The position numbers were made by a program, and so were the translations under genes. From Chiloscyllium plagiosum (Eukaryota), in NCBI RefSeq assembly GCF_004010195.1, contig NC_057718.1, positions 78,758,631 through 78,822,630 of the forward strand: 64,000 bases of DNA, read 5' to 3'. The stretch's first letter is position 1, and each line of letters begins with the position of its first letter. Below, piece after piece: positions 3,730-57,358 of this stretch. A model generated the notes under the pieces. That model ran no database searches. It saw nothing but the letters and a program-made list of their open reading frames with translations, and was not told the origin of the DNA.

Positions 3730-3875
3730 CTGACAGTTGCCAACACTATGTTCAATATTTCCTGCACACAGTTCGCTGTTTTTCACACTTCCATCCAAAT
3801 GTTCAGGCTGATTGCAAATGTTATTTTCTATCACTGAAAAACCTGCTTCTTTTAAAACCCCATCACGTCCAGTTC
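3730..3875 (-). CDS. plg: Plasminogen-like exon 18 equivalent: TGRDGVLKEAGFSVIENNICNQPEHLDGSVKNSELCAGNIEHSVGNCQ
   Basis: Within ORF 3706..3918; tttag/gtatg; 146 bp; VGNCQ replaces TDSCQ. Confidence 0.94.
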
Positions 3876-6573: not shown

Positions 6574-6680
6574 CTTGAGTTTCACCCCAGCCTGAAACAT
6601 AGCATTCAGCTCCATTTGGTAGTATATAGTCCTGTGTTGGTAAACAGATTAATGCCACTTTGTCAGTCAGGACAGCTGGC
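6574..6680 (-). CDS. plg: Plasminogen-like exon 17 equivalent: PAVLTDKVALICLPTQDYILPNGAECYVSGWGETQ
   Basis: Translated by hand; CLP...C.V.GWGETQ; ttcag/gtaca; 107 bp. Confidence 0.94.
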
Positions 6681-13578: not shown

Positions 13579-13653
13579 CGTTCTAAACACTGTTTGGCTG
13601 TTACCACCCACTTGGTATCAATAAGACTTCCTCCACAGAAGTGAGTGTCAAAA
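13579..13653 (-). CDS. plg: Plasminogen-like exon 15 equivalent (His57 region): FDTHFCGGSLIDTKWVVTAKQCLER
   Basis: Translated by hand; HFCGG.LI...WV.TA.xC; tacag/gtaagc; 75 bp; catalytic His position is CAG (Gln) at 13590-13592. Confidence 0.94.
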
Positions 13654-13787
13654 CTGTAATATACAAGACAGTTTTAATGATTTAACATCAATTGATTTAA
13701 AGGCTTTCAAAGTAAGCTTCAGCGGTTTGCAATAATACCATGCAAATAATGTTAAAAAATATAGTTCAACAGGTTTAATTGGAAGCA

Positions 13788-13822
13788 CACTAGCTTTCAG
13801 AGCGACGCTCCTTCATCAGGTG
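13788..13822 (-). ncRNA. Minimal hammerhead ribozyme motif (third Penelope-type family), sense to host pre-mRNA
   Basis: CAC-CUGAUGA-A-GGAGC(GUC)GCUCU-GAAA-GCUA-GUG; degenerate sibling at ~12895-12928. Confidence 0.7.
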
Positions 13823-15182
13823 ATAGTGGAGAGCTCGATCGTAACACAGAATTTATAGCAAAAATTTGCAGTGTGATGTAACTGAAATTATACATTGAAA
13901 AATTGATTGTCTGTTAAACCTTTCATCCGTTAGAATACAGTGATAGTTTCACTTCTTTCATTTGTAAATCACAAACCCTTTTTTTTTAAAGTTGCACTCT
14001 CGGGTTAGCTGCTAACAATGGTGATTGCTAGACAATATGTTGAAGGTGTTCTCCAAATCATGCAAATAATGCAATGTGTAAAAATCCTCATCTCCCCTGA
14101 TCTTTTCACCAACTTGTAATGCCTGTGTTTAAAAGAGTAAAAAGTGATTTGATTGAAGCATACACAACCCTGATGGATCTTGATAGTGTGGATGTGGAGA
14201 GATGTTGTCTCTTTGTGGAAGAATTTAGAACTAGGGATCACTTGTCGAGACAATCACAATTTTTATTTTATTTTTCTCATTTTCTAGCTTGGAACAATTG
14301 ACCTTGAACTTGGAACAGCAACTCTTTACAAAAGTGAAGCGAACAAAGATAACTGCTTTTCGTTGGGAATTTGCCTGGAAAAATAACACAACTTAATTAC
14401 TCGTCTATGAACATTGTAGTCGAATTAGCACTGAGGTGTTCCTATGCTCAGGGTTGGCAATTTGTTGGATGTTGAGTTGCTCCAACAAGCAACTGCTGCT
14501 AACCAGCCAACCACAAAGAATGTTGATTGAAAAGTGAAAAAAATCAAGAGAGAACCAGTTCTGACTGTTTGGCAGGAGGCACTATGAGTTTTGGAGATTT
14601 CCAGAGACAATATCGCTTGGTTCTACTCTCTCTCTCTCTAGTTTCTTTCCAATTATCAAATTGTTGAATATCCTGAGAATCCCAGTCTGTAAGAAGAAAA
14701 TAAATATTTCTAAAAGTCTGCTGAGCCTGTTTGCATTAACAGTGACTTCAGAATTTAAGCAAGATAAACAATTCTACTTGCTTGTGAACAACCCATTATC
14801 CAAGGATTTCATGAAGGTCTACTATCAATTGATGGAAACTGTTTATTGAATTGTCAAATTTTAATTCTTTAATTTTCTTTGTCAAATTATCCCTTAACAG
14901 TGTGTGTGTGAGAGAGTGGGGGTTATGATCAAAAAAGATTCGGCTTTAGATTGTAGATATTAATTACATTTACTGTGTTGTTTACCTGTGTTCTGCTAAA
15001 TTTACATTATTAATAATAATTTCTTTAACTTTTGTCTAAGTTATAAACTTGGTGACCAAAGACTGTTATTTATAAAATCTGGCTAGGGAGAATTGGGCAG
15101 TTATTGAATGCTTTTAATTTCCCTGTGCTGTGAATCCAGTGATAATGAAACGATTTGGTTTGGCTTACTATCCCTGTGTCAT

Positions 15183-15903
15183 GGATCAGTGGTGCTGGAA
15201 GAGCACAGCAATTCAGGCAGCATCCGAGGACAGGCAAAATCGATGTTTCGGGCAAAAGCCCTTCATCAGGAATAAAGGCAGAGAGACTGAAGCGTGGAGA
15301 GATAAGCTAGAGGAGGGTGGGGGTGGGGATAGAGTAGCATAGAGTACAATAGGTCAGTGGGGAAGGAGATGAAGGTGATAGGTCAGGGAGGAGAGGGTGG
15401 AGTGGATAGGTGGAAAAGGAGCTAGGCAGGTCGGACAAGTCCAGACACGTCAGGTCATCGTATTGCTGGAGGTTAGATACTAGGATGAGGTGGGGGAAGG
15501 GGAAATGAGGAAACTGTTGAAATCCACATTGATGCCCTGGGGTTGAAGTGTTCTGAGGCGGAAGATGAGGCGTTCTTCTTCCATGCGTTCCCCTGACCTG
15601 TCCGGACTTGTCCGACCTGCCCAGCTCCTTCTCCACCTATCCACTCCACCCTCTCCTCCCTGACCTATCACCTTCATCTCCTTCCCCACTGACCTATTGG
15701 ACTCTATGGTACTCTATCCCCACCCCCACCCTCCTCTAGCTTATCTCTCCACGCTTCAGGCTCTCTGCCTTTATTCCTGATGAAGGGCTTTTGCCCGAAA
15801 CGTCGATTTTGCCTGTCCTCGGATGCTGCCTGAATTGCTGTGCTCTTCCAGCACCACTGATCCAGAATCTGGTTTCCAGCCTCTGCAGTCATTGTTTTTA
15901 CCT
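15183..15903. mobile_element. Penelope-type foldback insertion with long inverted arms and 15-bp TSD
   Basis: ~15183-15450 mirrors ~15592-15863; ctatccctgtgtcat at 15168-15182 and 15904-15918; hammerhead motif on each arm. Confidence 0.85.
15773..15808 (+). ncRNA. Minimal hammerhead ribozyme motif
   Basis: CUGAUGA-A-GGGC(UUUU)GCCC-GAAA-CGUC. Confidence 0.7.
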
Positions 15904-17281
15904 CTATCCCTGTGTCATACCAATTTAAAATAGATTAGGTGAAATATTTTTCTCAGAGAGAGTCATGAGTTCTTGAACTTTCTTTCTAAATGTTGGAAGC
16001 AGAGTCCCTGAATATTTTTAAGACAGATATAGATAGATCTTGCTAAACATGGGGTTGACAGGTTCTCAGGGATAGGTAGGAATGTTGATTCTTGGTTACA
16101 GTCAGATAAGTCATAATCTTAGTGAATGGTGGAGCAGACTTGTGGGGCTGAGTGGTCTACTCCTGCTCATGATTTGTATATTCAGCTGTTCATGAGCACC
16201 TCCTCTCCTCTGAGGGAAGTAAATCTTAGTTTCTATAGTTTCTACACCTCCCTGAAGTTCCACATCCCAGGAACCATCCTTGCATATTTTCTCTGTTCCC
16301 TCTTCAAAGCCAGTCCTCCCTCTTGTATCAACTCATCTCTATCATTTCAGTGTTTTCTGAAAAGTTCATGGAATTTGGGGCTCACTTTCAAGCCCGGCAT
16401 TCATTATCCATTCTCAAACGCCCTCAAAAAAGTGGTCATGTGCAGCTTTCTGAAACCTCTTTCGCTTACATGGTGAACACTCTCCCAAAGTGAAACTATG
16501 AAGAGAGTTCCAGGTTTTAACTCAGCAACAGAAGATCCTGAAGAAGGGCTAATGCCCAAAACGTCGATTCTCCTGTTCCCTAGATGCTGCCTGACCTGCT
16601 GCGCTTCTCCAGCAACACATTTCCATCTCTGATCTCCAGCCTCTGCAGATCTCATTTTCTCAACAGAAGATATAGTTCCAAGTCAGGATGATGTGTTGCT
16701 TGATGGGGAATTTGCACATTGTAGTAGTATTCAAATTCATATTCCTTGACCCTCTAGGCAGTGGAGGTCAAGGAAGTGCTGTTGAAGAAGCCCTGATACA
16801 TTGTGTAATGCATCATGCATGATGATGCACACAATTACTACTATTCACTGGTAGTAGAGAGTCAGATATAGGCTGGTTTGTCCTGGGTGGTGCCTAGAAT
16901 TTTTTTGGAGCAGCACTCATCCAGGCAAGTGAAAAGTATCCCATCACAAAACTGAGCTGTGCCTTGTAGATGGTGAAGAAATTTTTGAGGATCAAGAAGA
17001 TGTTTCTAGCAAGTGCCCATCTGTCTAAGGGCAAATTACTGCAGATGCTGGAATCTGAACTGAAATCAAAAAAGTGTTGGAGATAACACTGGGTCAGGCA
17101 GCATCCATGGTGAGTTATCTGGACTCAAAACATTGGTTTCCATGTGTCTTGTAGCCACAGTATTTATGTGGCTGGTCAAGTTAAAGATTTTAGTGTGTAA
17201 CAGTGGTTAGTAGCATGACTTCACTTGTAACTTATCGAAGAAAAATATTCTTATCATATGTTTCTGAGGCAAATCACTTAC

Positions 17282-17402
17282 TTAATGCGAAGACTAACTT
17301 GCCAAGGCCAGGAATATGGTTTGGATATACAGCCACCAACAATACTTCCAAAACATCTCTTGGGTTCAACACTAGGCCTTCCACATTCATTAGACTGTTG
17401 TT
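17282..17402 (-). CDS. plg: Plasminogen-like exon 14 equivalent (activation loop): [39 protein letters not shown]
   Basis: Translated by hand; CG.P.VEPK.C.G.(I/V)VGGC...[10 protein letters not shown] is plasminogen-type; ctag/gtaagt; 121 bp; P1 codon AGT (Ser) at 17344-17346. Confidence 0.94.
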
Positions 17403-23812: not shown

Positions 23813-23956
<144 letters not shown>

Positions 23957-24286: not shown

Positions 24287-25158
24287 GTGTAGGTTTGCTC
24301 GCTGAGCTGAAAGGCTCATTTCCAAACGTTTAGTTACCTTACTAGGTAACATCCTCAGTGGACCTCATGAGAAGCAATGCTGAAAATTCCTGCTTTCTAT
24401 TTATATGTTTGGGTTTCTTTGGGTTGGTGATGTCATTACCTGTGGCGACGTTATTTCCTGTGGTGAATTCACTTCCTGTTCCTTTTCTCAGGGGGTGGTA
24501 GATGGGGTCTAACTCGATGTGTTTATTGATAGAGTTCCAGTTGGAATGCCATGCTTCTAGGAATTCTCGTGCATGTCTTTGTTTGGCTTGTCCTAGGATG
24601 GATGTATTCTCCCAGTCAAAGTGGTGTCCATCCTCATCCATATGTGAGGATACTAGTGAGAGAGGGTCATGTCTTTTTGTGGCCAGTTGGTGTTCATGTA
24701 TCCTGGTGGCTAGTTTTCTGCCTGTTTGTCCGATGTAGTGTTTGTTACAGTCCTTGCACGGTATTTTGTAAATGACATTAGTTTTGCTCATTGTCTGTAC
24801 AGGATCTTTAAAGTTCATTAGCTGCTGTTTTAATGTGTTGGTGGTTTAAGGGCTACCATGATGCCAAGAGGTTTGAGAAGTTTGGCAGTCATTTCTGAGA
24901 TTTCTTTGATGTAAGGGAGAGTGGCTAGGGTTTCTGGACATGTCTTGTCTGCTTTTTTGTGTTTGTTGCTGAGAAATTGGTGGACATATAAATAGAAACA
25001 TATAAAATAGAAAGCAGGATTTTTCGGCATTGCTTCGCGTGAGGTCACTGAAGATGTTACCTAGTAAGGTAACAAAACGTCTGGAAATGAACCTTTCAGC
25101 TCAGCGAGCAAACCTACATCCAAAACCTCAACCTGAGCTACAAATCTTCTCAAAACTC
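24287..25158 (-). mobile_element. Penelope-like element (GIY-YIG endonuclease part) with inverted terminus and 13-bp TSD
   Basis: ORF 24342..24818 NVIYKIPCKDCNKHYIGQTGRKLATRIHEH; ggtattttattga at 24274-24286 and 25159-25171. Confidence 0.9.
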
Positions 25159-26702: not shown

Positions 26703-26851
26703 ATTTCCCTCGAGTCCAGCATCAGGATGTGATTCAGGAGTGAAGATGATATGAAAGTGGGGTGACATCAGTGACCAGTGCTGGCATGTTCTTCCACTTG
26801 ATGTAGTTGATCTTGTTCCACGATATGTCACTCCATTACCTACTTGGCAAT
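26703..26851 (-). CDS. plg: Plasminogen-like exon 12 equivalent (kringle 5, first half): DCQVGNGVTYRGTRSTTSSGRTCQHWSLMSPHFHIIFTPESHPDAGLEGN
   Basis: Overlaps ORF 26604..26831; ccag/gtgagt; 149 bp; ends in phase 0 after ..GLE.N, the exon split characteristic of PLG K5. Confidence 0.93.
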
Positions 26852-28505: not shown

Positions 28506-28696
28506 CTGGTTGACCATCAGTCACTTGCAAGGCCTCGCTGCTTCTTCCGTGTACAGGAATTATAGTGGGGGATTGAGATGGTGAAGCACCACACTTTGAA
28601 ATCCTACAATATTCCCATCGGACCAAAGGGTCAGTTGTGAAGCACCAAGGAGCCTTATCCTGATCAGGATTTCTACAGTAGTTACCAAATAGACCC
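28506..28696 (-). CDS. plg: Plasminogen-like exon 11 equivalent (kringle 4 second half + K4-K5 linker): [63 protein letters not shown]
   Basis: Within ORF 28492..28725; cacag acceptor, gtaac donor; 191 bp keeps frame. Confidence 0.92.
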
Positions 28697-40613: not shown

Positions 40614-40770
40614 GCATTCGGAAAATCCTGTGAAGTTTTCGCATGTCTGTGGGGTGTCATGGAATCCCATTCCTGACATCTTCTTCCGGACACTGTCACA
40701 GATATGGTCCCTCGATAATTATAACCATTTCCACTTAAACAATCAGTAGATCCACCTTCATTCACTGGCC
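40614..40770 (-). CDS. plg: Plasminogen-like exon 10 equivalent (kringle 4, first half): [52 protein letters not shown]
   Basis: Translated by hand; ttttcag/gtaagt; 157 bp; SMTPHRH..T...PNA typical of PLG K4. Confidence 0.93.
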
Positions 40771-44907: not shown

Positions 44908-45029
44908 CTGGAGGTAGATGGCCACACTTTTGTACTTGGCAATATTCCCATCTTGTATTTGGATTGGTGGTGTAACACCAGGGTTCCTTTTCATTTTCTG
45001 GGTTCCTGCAGTAATTACCTTCTAGTCCT
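44908..45029 (-). CDS. plg: Plasminogen-like exon 9 equivalent (kringle 3, second half): [40 protein letters not shown]
   Basis: Translated by hand; polyT-aag acceptor; donor G|gtgaaa precedes an in-frame stop; 122 bp keeps frame. Confidence 0.9.
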
Positions 45030-45288: not shown

Positions 45289-45451
45289 TTGCAGGGGTAG
45301 TTCTCTGGCGTTCTTGAATGCATGTGTGGAAACTGAGCATCCCATCTTTGACAAATTTTACCAGACATAGTGGTCGATATGGCTCCACGATACTTTTGAC
45401 CTGTGCCTGTGTAGCACTCTGTCTCCACTTCAATATCAGGAGGCTCTGCAC
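45289..45451 (-). CDS. plg: Plasminogen-like exon 8 equivalent (kringle 3, first half): AEPPDIEVETECYTGTGQKYRGAISTTMSGKICQRWDAQFPHMHSRTPENYPCK
   Basis: Translated by hand (absent from ORF track); C..G.G..YRG..S.T.SG..CQ.W; extra Cys in ENYPCK as in PLG K3; ag/gtaagt; 163 bp. Confidence 0.93.
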
Positions 45452-49569: not shown

Positions 49570-50630
49570 TTGTTTTGATTTGATTTGCGTTATTATTGTT
49601 GCATGTATCGACATACAGTGGAAAGTATTGTATTGCGTGTTCAACAGACAAATCTTATCGTACATAAATATATTAGAGTAATAGAACAGAATACAGCATA
49701 TAGTGTTACAGTTACAGAGAAGATGCAGAGAAATACTAACTCTAATGTATGTATCATAAGTCTGATTACGGAGGGGCAGAAGCTGTTCTAAAATCTATTG
49801 GTACGTGTTTTCAAACTTTGTATCTTCTGCCTGATGGAAGAGGGTGGAAGAGAGTATAATCAGGGTGGGAGGGGTCTTTGATGATGTTAGCTGCTTTCGT
49901 GAGGCAATGGGATGTTTAGACAGTGTCAATGGAAGGAAGGCTGGTTGTTGTGATGGACTGGGCTGCATTCACAACTTACCATAATTTCTGGCTGCCTTGG
50001 GCAAAGCAGTTGCTGTACCAAGTGGTGATGCATCAGTATAGAATGCTTTCTATGGCGCATCTATAAAAATTGGTAAAAGTAATTGCAGACATGCCAACTT
50101 TCCTTAGCATTCTGAGGAAGTAAAGGCATTGATATGATTTCTTGACTGTAACGTGGATGGACCAGGATAGATTGTTGGTGATATTTACTCCTAGCAACTT
50201 GAAGCTTTCGATCACCACCACCTCAGCACCATTGATACAGACAAAGGTATGTCCTCCACTCTGCTTCGTAAAGTCGATGACCAGCTCTTTTGTATTTTTA
50301 CTAACATTGAGAGAGAGTGATTGTTGTCTTAACCATGCTACTGAGCTGTCTATTTCTTTTTTGTACTCTATCTTGTCACTGTTTGAGATCTGACCCGTTA
50401 CAATGGAGTCATCAGCAAATTTGCAAATGGAGTTAGAGCTGAATTTGGCCACATAGACATGAGTGTACAAGTACCAGTGCTGAGGATTATTGTGAAGGAA
50501 GTTGTCATCTATCCTTACTGACTGCAGTCTGCAGGTCAGGAAATCGAGGATTCATTTACAGAGGGGAAACTAGAGTCCTAGGTCTCGGAGTCTGGAGATA
50601 CGTTTTGTTGGAGTTATGGTGTTGAAAGCA
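49570..50630 (-). mobile_element. Rex1/Babar-like LINE 3' part
   Basis: ORF 50033..50470 KFADDSIVTGQISNSD..LSLNVSK.TKELVIDF..FKLLGVNITNNLSW..LYFLRML. Confidence 0.78.
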
Positions 50631-51711: not shown

Positions 51712-53655
51712 TTGGACATAGAACATCGAACATTACAGTGCAGCACCTGCCCTTTGACTCTTGATGTTGCGCCACCCTGTGGAACCAATTTGAAGCACAT
51801 CTAACCTACACCATTCCATTCTCATCCATATTCTGGATTAGTGGTGCTGGAAGAGCACAGCAATTCAGGCAGCATCCGAGGACAGGCAAAATCGACGTTT
51901 CGGGCAAAAGCCCCTCATCAGGAATAAAGGCAGAGAGCCTGAAGCATGGAGAGATAAGCTAGAGGAGGGTGGGGGTGGGGAGAGAGTAGCATAGAGTACA
52001 ATAGGTAGGTGGGGAAGGAGATGAAGGTGATAGGTGAGGTTTCACGGGATGTTCCCTGAAGTGAGAGGTCTCAGCAAAAAGTTAACTTTTGTTTGGGGTC
52101 TGTGGAGCAGAAGAGGCTAAGGGGGCAATTGATGCAGACATAATGGTGAGTGATATAGACTGGGCCGATTGTGATAAATACTTCCGCGATGTAGGCATGT
52201 CTTAGACCAATTGAATTAAGGTTAAAGTGAAAAATGAAGCATTTCGCGAGGATCTGATGGAAAAGCAAATTACCCAGGGGATGGGTCAAATATGGAACAT
52301 GTTGCCTGAGAGGGTAGCTTATCTCTCCATGCTTCAGGCTCTCTGCCTTTATTCCTGATGAAGGGCTTTTGCCCGAAACGTCGATTTTGCCTGTCCTCGG
52401 ATGCTGCCTGAATTGCTGTGCTCTTCCAGCACCACTAATCCAGAATCTGGTTTCCAGCATCTGCAGTCATTGTTTTTACCTCATTCTCATCCATATGCCT
52501 ATCCAATGATCATTTAAATGCTCTTAAAGTTGGCGAGTCTACAACTGTTGCAGGCAGCGCATTCCATATTTCTACTATTCTCTGAGTAAAGGAACTACCT
52601 CTGACATCTGTCCTATGTCTGTCACCGCTCTGTTTAAAGCTATGTCCCCTCAAAGACAGCACCATCAGAGGAAAAAGGTTCTTATTGTCCACCCAATCCA
52701 ACCCTCTGATTATCTGATATGTCTCAATTAAGTCACCTCTCAATCTTCTTCTCTCTAATGAAAACAGCCTCAAGTCTCTCAACCTTCCCTCATAAGATCT
52801 TCCCTTTACATCCTAGTAAATCTCCTCTCAATCCTCTACAAAGCTTCCATATCCTTCCTATAATGCAGTGACCAGAACTGCACGCAATACTCCAAGTGTG
52901 GCTGCACCAGAATTTTATACAGGTGCAGTATGACCTCATGGATCCAAAACTCAATCCCTCTGCTAATAAAAGCTAACACACCATATGCCTTCTTAACAGC
53001 CCTATCAACCTGGGTGGCAACTTTGAGGGATCTATGTACATGGACACCAAGATCTCTCTGTACATCTACATTATAAAGAATCGTACAAGTACTCTGCATT
53101 CCTGTTACTCCTTCCAAAGTGAATCACCTCACACTTTTCTGCATTAAACTCCATTCGCCAACTCTCAGCCCAGCTCTGTAACATGCAACATCCTTCAGCA
53201 CTATCCACAACCCCACCAACCTTGATGTCATTCACAAATTTACTAACCCATCCTTCCACGCCCTCATCAAGGTCGTTTATAAAAATGACAAACAGCAGTG
53301 GACCCAAAACAGGTCCTTTCGGTGTACCACTAGTAACTAAACACCAGGATGAACATTTCCCATCAACCACCACCCTCTGTCTTCTTTCAGCTAACCAATC
53401 TCTGATCCAAGCCACTAAATCACCCTCAATCCCATGCCTCCGTATTTTGTGCAACAACCTACCATGGGGAACCTTATCAAACACTTTACTGAAATCCATA
53501 TACACCACGTCAACCGCTTTACCCTCATCCACCTGTTGGGTCACCTTCTCAAAGAACTGAATAAGGTTTGTGAGGTACGACCTATCCTTCACAAAACTGT
53601 GTTGACAATCTCTAATCAACTTATTCCTATCAAGATGATTATAAATCCCATCTCT
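51712..53655 (-). mobile_element. CR1 LINE (RT to 3' end) interrupted by a Penelope-type insertion
   Basis: ORF 53071..53619 YMDFSKVFDKVPH..G.VLGPLLF.IFINDL; ORFs 52836..53117 and 52510..52782. Confidence 0.9.
51832..52481. mobile_element. Penelope-type foldback insertion with inverted arms, two intact hammerhead cores and 15-bp TSD
   Basis: cattctcatccatat at 51817-51831 and 52482-52496; arms ~51832-51961 vs ~52315-52445. Confidence 0.85.
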
Positions 53656-54579
53656 TGTTTATTTCACATTCTCCTCTCCACCTCCAAATATTCGGATGGC
53701 ATCTGTAAAAGGCACCCTTGTTTCTGTCAATGATGAATGAGGTACTGAAGGATTAGGCTCTGGGAAATGAAATGGATCAAGCAGAGTTAGGGGAAAAGGT
53801 AAGAACACTGATATTGTACTATAATGTTTAGGTCATCTGCAGGAAAGAACAAGGGGCCATGTTGACCAAAATCGGTTAACTGCAGGATGGCCAGTTTCAG
53901 CAGAGAGGAATAAGAATATTGCAGAGTTAAATTGGAATTACAAATTACTTAGTTGCACTTTTGCCTGTCAATGAACAACTTTTAAAGATAGTGTAGATTA
54001 TAAAGTGGTTGTAAAATTATTTTGTTAAGAGCGTGCTCAGGTTAAGAATCTGGTAAATGTGGGAATTCTCTGCAGAGTGGTAAAAGTAAATTTTAAATGT
54101 TTTTTCCTAGAGCTAATGTATAGTTTTCATTTATCTATAAGCTAGGAAACTAGCCTGTTATTGCTTTACTTAAATTACTAAATTAATAACTTAAACTAGA
54201 TAAATTAATCAATTAATAAAACTAAAATAAAGGGTCTGGGTAGTGCTGTGGTAGTTTCCCTACTTCTGGACCCAGAGTCCGAGTTCAAGTCCCACAGGCT
54301 CCAGAGGTCTGTAATAACATTGCTGGTTTGAAAACATTTAAAACTAAAATAATCAATTCAACTAAAATTAATTAACTAATTAAATAAATGAGTACATTTT
54401 GATTGAAATGGTAAGGCAGATAGGGCGATGTAATCTGAAAGATTGTGGGAAGCATTGTGATACCTTACAACCATATCTGTGCTACGTCTGTAGCTAAGAC
54501 CCGTGGTTCAGATGATTGGTGAGGGGTAGAGGGAAAATGAATAGGTTAGGGTTGCAGTAGGTAGTCATTTTGACGCTTT

Positions 54580-57239: not shown

Positions 57240-57358
57240 TACAACGTGGAACATTGCAGAATGCCCATCGCTTTTGGGTATCAGTTGTAAAACACCATGG
57301 CCTGGGTTCTCCATCAGGATTACGACAGTAGTTCTCCTCGAAATATTTATCTGGAAAA
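57240..57358 (-). CDS. plg: Plasminogen-like gene, exon equivalent to PLG exon 7 (kringle 2, second half): [39 protein letters not shown]
   Basis: Kringle motif NYCRNPD..PWCFT..RW..C....C; ttcag acceptor and gtaag donor; 119 bp, phase 2->1. Confidence 0.93.

What the first reader, a model, noticed from the sequence alone, without database searches (positions are those of the whole stretch)
17344..17346. Activation site Arg->Ser (CFGS|IVGGC), the same substitution as human apolipoprotein(a)
Seen: codon AGT at P1 in [11 protein letters not shown], one base from AGA/AGG. Established: tPA/uPA cleave Arg561-Val562 within this disulfide loop, and human apo(a) has Ser here (CPGSIVGGC) and is not activated. 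Inference: independent loss of activatability in a distant lineage.
Basis: partly seen in the sequence, partly recalled or inferred. Interest (0 to 1): 0.8.

Follow-up and report, generated by a model that had tools for sequence, protein, structure and literature searches.

The report
Dead plasminogen twin in bamboo sharks
Bamboo sharks carry a second, transcribed copy of the clot-dissolving plasminogen gene that has lost its activation site and its catalytic serine but kept its clot-binding kringle residues, so it likely acts as a decoy that dampens clot breakdown, much as human apolipoprotein(a) is thought to.

Summary
The Ser codon is real (AGT, minus strand, 17346-17344), and human apo(a) has Ser at the same place. 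But this is not the shark's plasminogen. It is a tandem duplicate (gene A) 148 kb from an intact plasminogen (gene B: Arg-Ile, full triad). Gene A has also lost Ser195 (Thr), the S1 Asp189 (Gly), His57 (Gln), Trp215-Gly216 and its PAN domain. It keeps five kringles with lysine-binding residues and 44 Cys that all have partners, is spliced in RNA contigs, and evolves no faster than gene B. Whale and zebra shark orthologues share Thr195, Gly189 and PAN loss but keep Arg, so Arg->Ser came late, in an already crippled protease. It is one base change with a 17-33% chance of giving Ser, so the match alone is weak convergence. Broken duplicates also occur in Mustelus, Cetorhinus and Scyliorhinus. Best reading: a non-activatable, lysine-binding decoy that dampens plasmin generation (inferred, untested). 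It works like apo(a) but is not one: no kringle IV expansion, no free Cys. Dead plasminogen copies are reported in coelacanths and birds; my searches found none described for sharks.

The parts
17344..17346 (-). P1 codon AGT (Ser500 of P0127); AGA (Arg) in the intact paralogue
   Evidence: kept in spliced contigs
17282..17402 (-). Activation-loop exon of gene A; no basic residue inside the Cys-Cys loop CFGSIVGGC
   Evidence: spliced to both neighbour exons
13579..13653 (-). His57 exon; His is Gln here (CAG, 13592-13590); His in C. punctatum and Stegostoma, Arg in Rhincodon
13001..13141 (-). Asp102 exon; Asp kept (13026-13024)
6574..6680 (-). Protease exon (PAVLTDK...WGETQ)
3730..3875 (-). S1-pocket exon; Asp189 is Gly (GGC, 3741-3739). 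The last exon, with Ser195->Thr and the Trp215-Gly216 deletion, lies outside the window at G000:C9:78756181-78756026
23854..23950 (-). Kringle 5, second exon; Asp54, Asp56 and Arg70 present, His at 71
26703..26851 (-). Kringle 5, first exon
28506..28696 (-). Kringle 4, second exon and linker; full lysine-binding set
40614..40770 (-). Kringle 4, first exon
44908..45029 (-). Kringle 3, second exon
45289..45451 (-). Kringle 3, first exon
57240..57358 (-). Kringle 2, second exon. Upstream exons (signal peptide C9:78875216, K1a 78850747, K1b 78834924, K2a 78828337) and the decayed PAN exon (about C9:78875059-78874903) lie beyond the window's end

Best explanation
The Ser sits in a transcribed tandem duplicate of plasminogen that has lost its PAN domain, activation Arg, catalytic Ser and His and S1 Asp but keeps five kringles with lysine-binding residues, and it likely works as a secreted decoy that would occupy lysine sites on fibrin and cells and so slow activation of the true plasminogen. 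Shown: the duplication, the lesions, splicing, conservation, and the order of losses (PAN, Ser195 and Asp189 first in carpet sharks; P1 Arg and Trp215-Gly216 later in Chiloscyllium; His57 last, separately in two species). Inferred from human plasminogen: without PAN the protein cannot close up, so its kringles stay exposed as in Lys-plasminogen; with Ser at P1, tPA and uPA cannot cut it, so it stays single-chain. On this reading the Arg->Ser change itself is a tolerated late loss in a dead enzyme.
For: Two plasminogen genes lie in tandem on one strand; B is intact. A's lesions at P1, 57, 189 and 195 are single-base changes from B's codons, at sites that are Arg 118/120, His 118/120, Asp 116/120 and Ser 116/120 in relatives. 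The signal exon splices in frame to kringle 1; the old PAN exon remains without splice sites and with frameshifts; Pfam finds PAN in B, not A. Spliced A-type contigs occur in 3 of 4 runs laid. Constraint: dN/dS A vs B is 0.38 (0.29-0.49), kringles 0.33; Chiloscyllium vs Rhincodon differ at 91/623 sites in A and 85/617 in B (p 0.69); no Cys lost in K1-protease in 4 of 4 carpet-shark A proteins. Acidic 54/56 and Arg70 are present in all five kringles of A; K5 Arg70 is in 7 of 8 A copies and 0 of 9 B copies. Catshark A models have kringles but no protease domain, which points to the kringles as the working part. The role of PAN in the closed form and the lysine-site residues are from PMC11231438 (section 7 and passages); apo(a) competing for fibrin is from PMC7016456 (passages).
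Against: No binding, plasma or clot-lysis data exist for this protein. A-type contigs had about 4-11% of the depth of B-type contigs in the three runs; the tool says depth cannot rank genes, but a minor protein would be a weak bulk competitor. The dead protease domain is as conserved as the live one (38/249 vs 40/251 differences), more than a pure kringle decoy needs; this could reflect folding constraint or another binding role. The A-vs-B dN/dS mixes both lineages. Mustelus, Cetorhinus and Scyliorhinus copies keep PAN, so the open-form step holds only for carpet sharks. Chiloscyllium K5 has His for the aromatic residue 71 and K3 has Glu at 54. K5 Arg70 also occurs in three rays, so it may be retained rather than gained.
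Confidence: 0.5

Rival explanations
1. Arg->Ser was itself selected, as a true parallel to apo(a): a cleavable dead copy is consumed by tPA/uPA, and a non-cleavable one is a more stable inhibitor.
For: The Ser is fixed in two Chiloscyllium species and in run X18 of a third organism label. Primate apo(a) has it from macaque to human (7 of 7 named primate proteins with a readable site), and human and chimpanzee keep the triad, so there the P1 change is an early lesion.
Against: Whale and zebra shark orthologues, and the Mustelus and Cetorhinus copies, keep Arg. Ser is the likeliest single-step outcome from AGA. Other catalytic sites decay on the same branches (His57 twice, Trp215-Gly216).
Confidence: 0.2
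2. Gene A is a new plasminogen-related growth factor, a receptor ligand like HGF or MSP, as proposed for the dead copies of coelacanths and birds.
For: His57->Gln and loss of Ser195 recall HGF/MSP (recalled). The dead protease domain is strongly conserved and is predicted to fold like plasminogen's (rmsd 1.9 A to 1ddj). PMC6337849 section 11 raises this idea for other groups.
Against: HGF and MSP need the N-terminal PAN domain and cleavage at the Arg site to signal (recalled); gene A lacks both. Catshark models lack the protease domain altogether.
Confidence: 0.15
3. It is a decoy against microbes that capture host plasminogen through lysine sites: it would coat them with a protein that cannot become plasmin.
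For: Same anatomy as the best reading. Bacterial plasminogen receptors use the kringle lysine sites (PMC11231438 passage). It could work at low abundance.
Against: No sign of the fast evolution expected in a host-microbe race: A evolves at B's rate. No direct evidence.
Confidence: 0.12
4. It is a redundant copy in slow decay, kept similar to plasminogen by gene conversion, with no function.
For: Lesions accumulate stepwise. In trees, A and B tend to group by order in Lamniformes and Carcharhiniformes, as conversion would cause. C. plagiosum and C. punctatum A differ at 28/729 residues.
Against: Open reading frame and all Cys kept in 4 carpet-shark models (the Rhincodon model lacks the second K1 exon). 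A and B differ at 184/695 residues with dS 0.41, so conversion is not recent here. The dead PAN exon beside it has decayed with frameshifts while the used exons have not. It is spliced.
Confidence: 0.12

Closest known systems
Primate apolipoprotein(a) (LPA)
   Same: Linked duplicate of PLG; signal peptide joined straight to a kringle; Ser at P1 in ...GSIVGG; inactive protease domain; lysine-binding kringles (PMC7613587 and PMC7016456 passages).
   Different: Apo(a) lost K1-K3, multiplied KIV (16 kringles in P0267), has one 7-Cys kringle for apoB, and in humans keeps the triad. Gene A has K1-K5 once each, 44 Cys with none spare, and has lost Ser195, Asp189 and His57. Independent origin.
Dead plasminogen copies of coelacanths and birds (PLG-2; PMC6337849)
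   Same: Extra or altered PLG genes lacking catalytic residues; coelacanth forms also lost PAN (sections 6 and 11 read).
   Different: The coelacanth extra copy has one kringle. The paper names only coelacanths and birds; its supplements could not be searched.
Plasminogen (shark gene B; human PLG)
   Same: Same exon layout, five kringles, all disulfide Cys, same fold; next to MAP3K4.
   Different: No PAN, no activation Arg, broken triad and S1 pocket.
HGF and MSP (MST1)
   Same: Kringles plus dead protease with Gln for His57 (recalled).
   Different: They have PAN and four kringles, need cleavage, and are separate older genes; gene A nests among shark plasminogens.
Hedgehog apo(a)
   Same: A separate, convergent PLG-derived protein (title of Lawn 1997 seen only in reference lists; paper not held).
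   Different: Recalled: built of kringle 3 repeats, no protease domain, binds apoB.

Membership tests
Active plasminogen | Five kringles and a trypsin-fold domain with the conserved disulfides | tested here: met
Active plasminogen | N-terminal PAN domain | tested here: not met
   No Pfam PAN in P0127; exon remnant without splice sites
Active plasminogen | Arg at P1 of the activation loop | tested here: not met
Active plasminogen | His57-Asp102-Ser195 triad and Asp189 | tested here: not met
   Gln, Asp, Thr and Gly
Apolipoprotein(a) | Linked PLG duplicate with no PAN, inactive protease and Ser at P1 | tested here: met
Apolipoprotein(a) | Loss of K1-K3 and expansion of kringle IV | tested here: not met
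   Five single kringles; one set of exons in 410 kb, which holds 16,907 N
Apolipoprotein(a) | Unpaired Cys for the disulfide to apoB | tested here: not met
   44 Cys, none beyond the plasminogen set; human apo(a) has a 7-Cys kringle
Apolipoprotein(a) | Carried on an LDL-like particle | not testable with these tools
   needs shark plasma
Apolipoprotein(a) | Orthology with primate LPA | tested here: not met
   A groups inside galeomorph shark plasminogens, 100/99 (LPA was not in the tree); LPA arose 33-40 Mya per PMC7613587
HGF/MSP growth factors | PAN plus four kringles and a cleavable Arg site | tested here: not met
HGF/MSP growth factors | Binding and activating a receptor kinase | not testable with these tools
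   needs cell assays
Pseudogene | Broken frame, no spliced RNA, or neutral rate | tested here: not met
   729-aa frame with AG/GT ends at 12 of 12 window exons; spliced contigs; rate like gene B
Catalytically dead plasminogen duplicates (PLG-2 type) | Extra PLG-derived gene with lost catalytic residues beside an intact PLG | tested here: met

The most novel reading that the evidence does not exclude
Sharks of three orders independently evolved 'apo(a) without the lipoprotein': one old plasminogen duplicate was disarmed by a different route in each lineage and kept as a natural antifibrinolytic. In bamboo sharks it reached the same design as primate apo(a) (no PAN, Ser at P1, dead protease). 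If so, dampening plasmin, not carrying lipid, is the recurring reason vertebrates keep dead plasminogen copies.
Probability: 0.3. Interest if true: 0.72.

Novelty: new member of a known kind. Interest (0 to 1): 0.5.

Why it matters
What apo(a) was first selected for is a long-open question (recalled). A shark duplicate with the same losses but no kringle expansion and no apoB cysteine separates the fibrin-decoy role from the lipoprotein role. The sharks also give a natural series to test: cleavable but dead (whale, zebra shark), uncleavable (bamboo sharks), PAN kept (Mustelus, Cetorhinus), and protease absent (catshark models). It also corrects annotation: 'plasminogen-like' here is a pseudoprotease, and the Stegostoma 1512-aa model fuses the two genes. 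The single Arg->Ser match is the least surprising part.

Tried and rejected
Sequencing error: rejected (second species, spliced contigs of two studies). Loss of activatable plasminogen in this shark: rejected, gene B is intact. Orthology to LPA: rejected. One origin or several for the shark duplicates: unresolved; AU tests reject neither 'all A one clade' (p 0.225), 'Mustelus+Cetorhinus A' (p 0.20) nor 'carpet-shark A+B' (p 0.124). Mustelus and Cetorhinus A share a four-residue gap near the S1 loop, which favours a common origin with later conversion. Exon-versus-intron differences for organism B were inconclusive (2/218 vs 21/641 at best, p 0.086; only 16 of 23 differences were listed). No RNA holder was on record in the run search, whose stretch was repeat-rich. 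X21 gave 0 reads, no test. Contig depth was not used to rank genes. Pfam found nothing in the 41-aa exon alone. Among 143 unnamed representatives, 9 had kringles and a protease at least 50% like gene B's; the 7 whose P1 was aligned all had Arg. Six long teleost proteins (three named apo(a)-like) keep Arg and Ser195. The column labelled W215 was really residue 217; searches give the true deletion. PMC4959873 and PMC23680 were not held. Earlier findings: none near.

Full report
Observation. The codon at 17346-17344 (minus strand) is AGT and encodes Ser at P1 of a plasminogen activation loop. The protein is on record as 'plasminogen-like' of the bamboo shark Chiloscyllium plagiosum (P0001, P0127), and the window is G000:C9:78758631-78822630. 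The Ser recurs in C. punctatum (P0002, P0129). Of 120 relatives, only the two Chiloscyllium proteins lack Arg.

The gene is a duplicate. A genome search with the exon gave 2 matches. Mapping 410 kb showed two complete genes in tandem on the minus strand, with MAP3K4 about 150 kb beyond. Gene B (P0131) has PAN, five kringles, Arg-Ile, His, Asp, Ser and the S1 Asp. Gene A, in the window, differs from B by AGA->AGT (P1), CAC->CAG (His57), GAC->GGC (Asp189), AGT->ACT (Ser195) and a six-base deletion of Trp215-Gly216. Its signal exon splices in frame to kringle 1. The first PAN exon survives just behind it with both splice sites gone and three frameshifts; no trace of the second PAN exon was found, though the intron has small gaps.

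It is expressed and conserved. In runs X15 and X18, contigs cover the codon, keep the Ser base and run on into kringle 5 exon sequence; in X15 and X16 they run into the His57 exon. Those loose ends match window 23855 and 13624 exactly. All 12 window exons have AG and GT ends. dN/dS between A and B is 0.38 (95% 0.29-0.49). Between Chiloscyllium and Rhincodon, A differs at 91/623 sites and B at 85/617; in the protease domain 38/249 and 40/251. The 44 Cys are exactly the plasminogen set for K1-protease. AlphaFold2 gave mean pLDDT 78.9, low at the linkers and at the activation-domain loops (501-503, 626-632, 671-680), as expected of a zymogen-like chain; the protease domain fits plasminogen's at 1.9 A. 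pTM was 0.41, so the domain arrangement is not predicted.

Order of events. A proteins of C. plagiosum, C. punctatum, Rhincodon and Stegostoma form a clade (100/99). All four lack PAN and have Gly189 and Thr195. Rhincodon and Stegostoma keep Arg at P1 and Trp215-Gly216. His57 is kept in Stegostoma and C. punctatum, is Arg in Rhincodon and Gln in C. plagiosum; DNA run X10 also has the His codon. So Arg->Ser arose after the active site was already altered. From AGA, 2 of 6 missense neighbours are Ser (17-33%). The match to apo(a) at this residue therefore needs no special cause, although selection is not excluded.

Wider spread. Mustelus (Asn195) and Cetorhinus (Gly195) have second copies with PAN, Arg at P1 and a shared four-residue gap at the S1 loop. 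Two Scyliorhinus species have models with PAN and five kringles but no protease domain; these rest on annotation only. All A and B copies of these three orders form one clade apart from Heterodontus (100/99). One duplication with gene conversion and several duplications both fit (AU p 0.225 and 0.124).

Mechanism. Shown: secretion signal, no PAN, five kringles with acidic 54/56 and Arg70, no cleavable Arg, broken active site. K5 Arg70 is in 7 of 8 A and 0 of 9 B copies. From the literature: PAN-region basic residues dock in K4 and K5 to close plasminogen (PMC11231438, section 7), and apo(a) cannot be activated by tPA or uPA and competes for fibrin (PMC7016456 passages). Inferred: gene A's product is a permanently open, uncleavable Lys-plasminogen look-alike that takes lysine sites and yields no plasmin. 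I put this at 0.5. Against it: no functional data; A-type contigs had 4-11% of B-type depth (a weak measure); PAN is kept in other orders; and the dead domain is more conserved than a kringle decoy needs. Rivals are selection on P1 itself (0.2, compatible with the decoy role), a growth-factor-like ligand (0.15), an anti-microbial decoy (0.12) and slow decay (0.12).

Comparison and novelty. It works like apo(a) but fails membership: no kringle IV expansion, K1-K3 kept, no spare Cys, separate origin. PMC6337849 (passages, sections 6 and 11) reports dead PLG copies in coelacanths and birds and names none in sharks; its supplements could not be searched and might list one. PMC7613587 was seen as passages, PMC13701976 as passages with nothing relevant. 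Four searches for a shark duplicate found no paper describing it; subscription journals are largely not covered. Two searches for a printed statement of the apo(a) Arg->Ser change found none, so that point rests on the sequences. Verdict: a real, apparently undescribed shark member of a known kind; interest 0.5, carried by the whole gene and its natural series, not by the single codon.

Noticed in passing
P0126 (Stegostoma tigrinum, XP_048392025.2): The 1512-aa 'plasminogen' model fuses the dead duplicate (first half) and true plasminogen (second half); it shows A lies directly upstream of B on one strand there too.
   Followed up: yes
P0122, P0125 (Scyliorhinus canicula, S. torazame): Duplicate models with PAN and K1-K5 but no protease domain, like a ready-made angiostatin-type K1-5 protein; annotation only.
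   Followed up: partly
P0008 (Cetorhinus maximus): The duplicate has lost one protease Cys (GLGY) and gained another (QISLCT), so it may carry unpaired Cys, unlike the carpet-shark copies.
   Followed up: no
P0234, P0235, P0236, P0240 (teleosts): Long plasminogen-like models with 11-17 kringles, three named 'apolipoprotein(a)-like', keep Arg at P1 and the triad; P0240 has Gly at 189.
   Followed up: partly
P0001 (isoform X3 model): Its first 115 residues read kringle exons in the wrong frame; likely an annotation artefact or a mis-spliced transcript.
   Followed up: partly
G000:C9:79026165-79136639: MAP3K4 lies on the opposite strand to both plasminogen genes; in human, PLG and MAP3K4 share a strand (recalled).
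   Followed up: no
window 53071-53658 (-), 50033-50551 (-), 24342-24845 (-): Intronic retroelement remains: reverse transcriptase (E 1.2e-18), an ALKBH8_N-like match and a weak GIY-YIG match. High-copy repeats also lie at about 13700-14100, 15100-16000 and 16450-16750.
   Followed up: no
window 17366: Run X18 (organism C) has a different base here, giving Ala for Glu six residues before the loop's first Cys region (VEPK), while keeping the Ser codon.
   Followed up: partly
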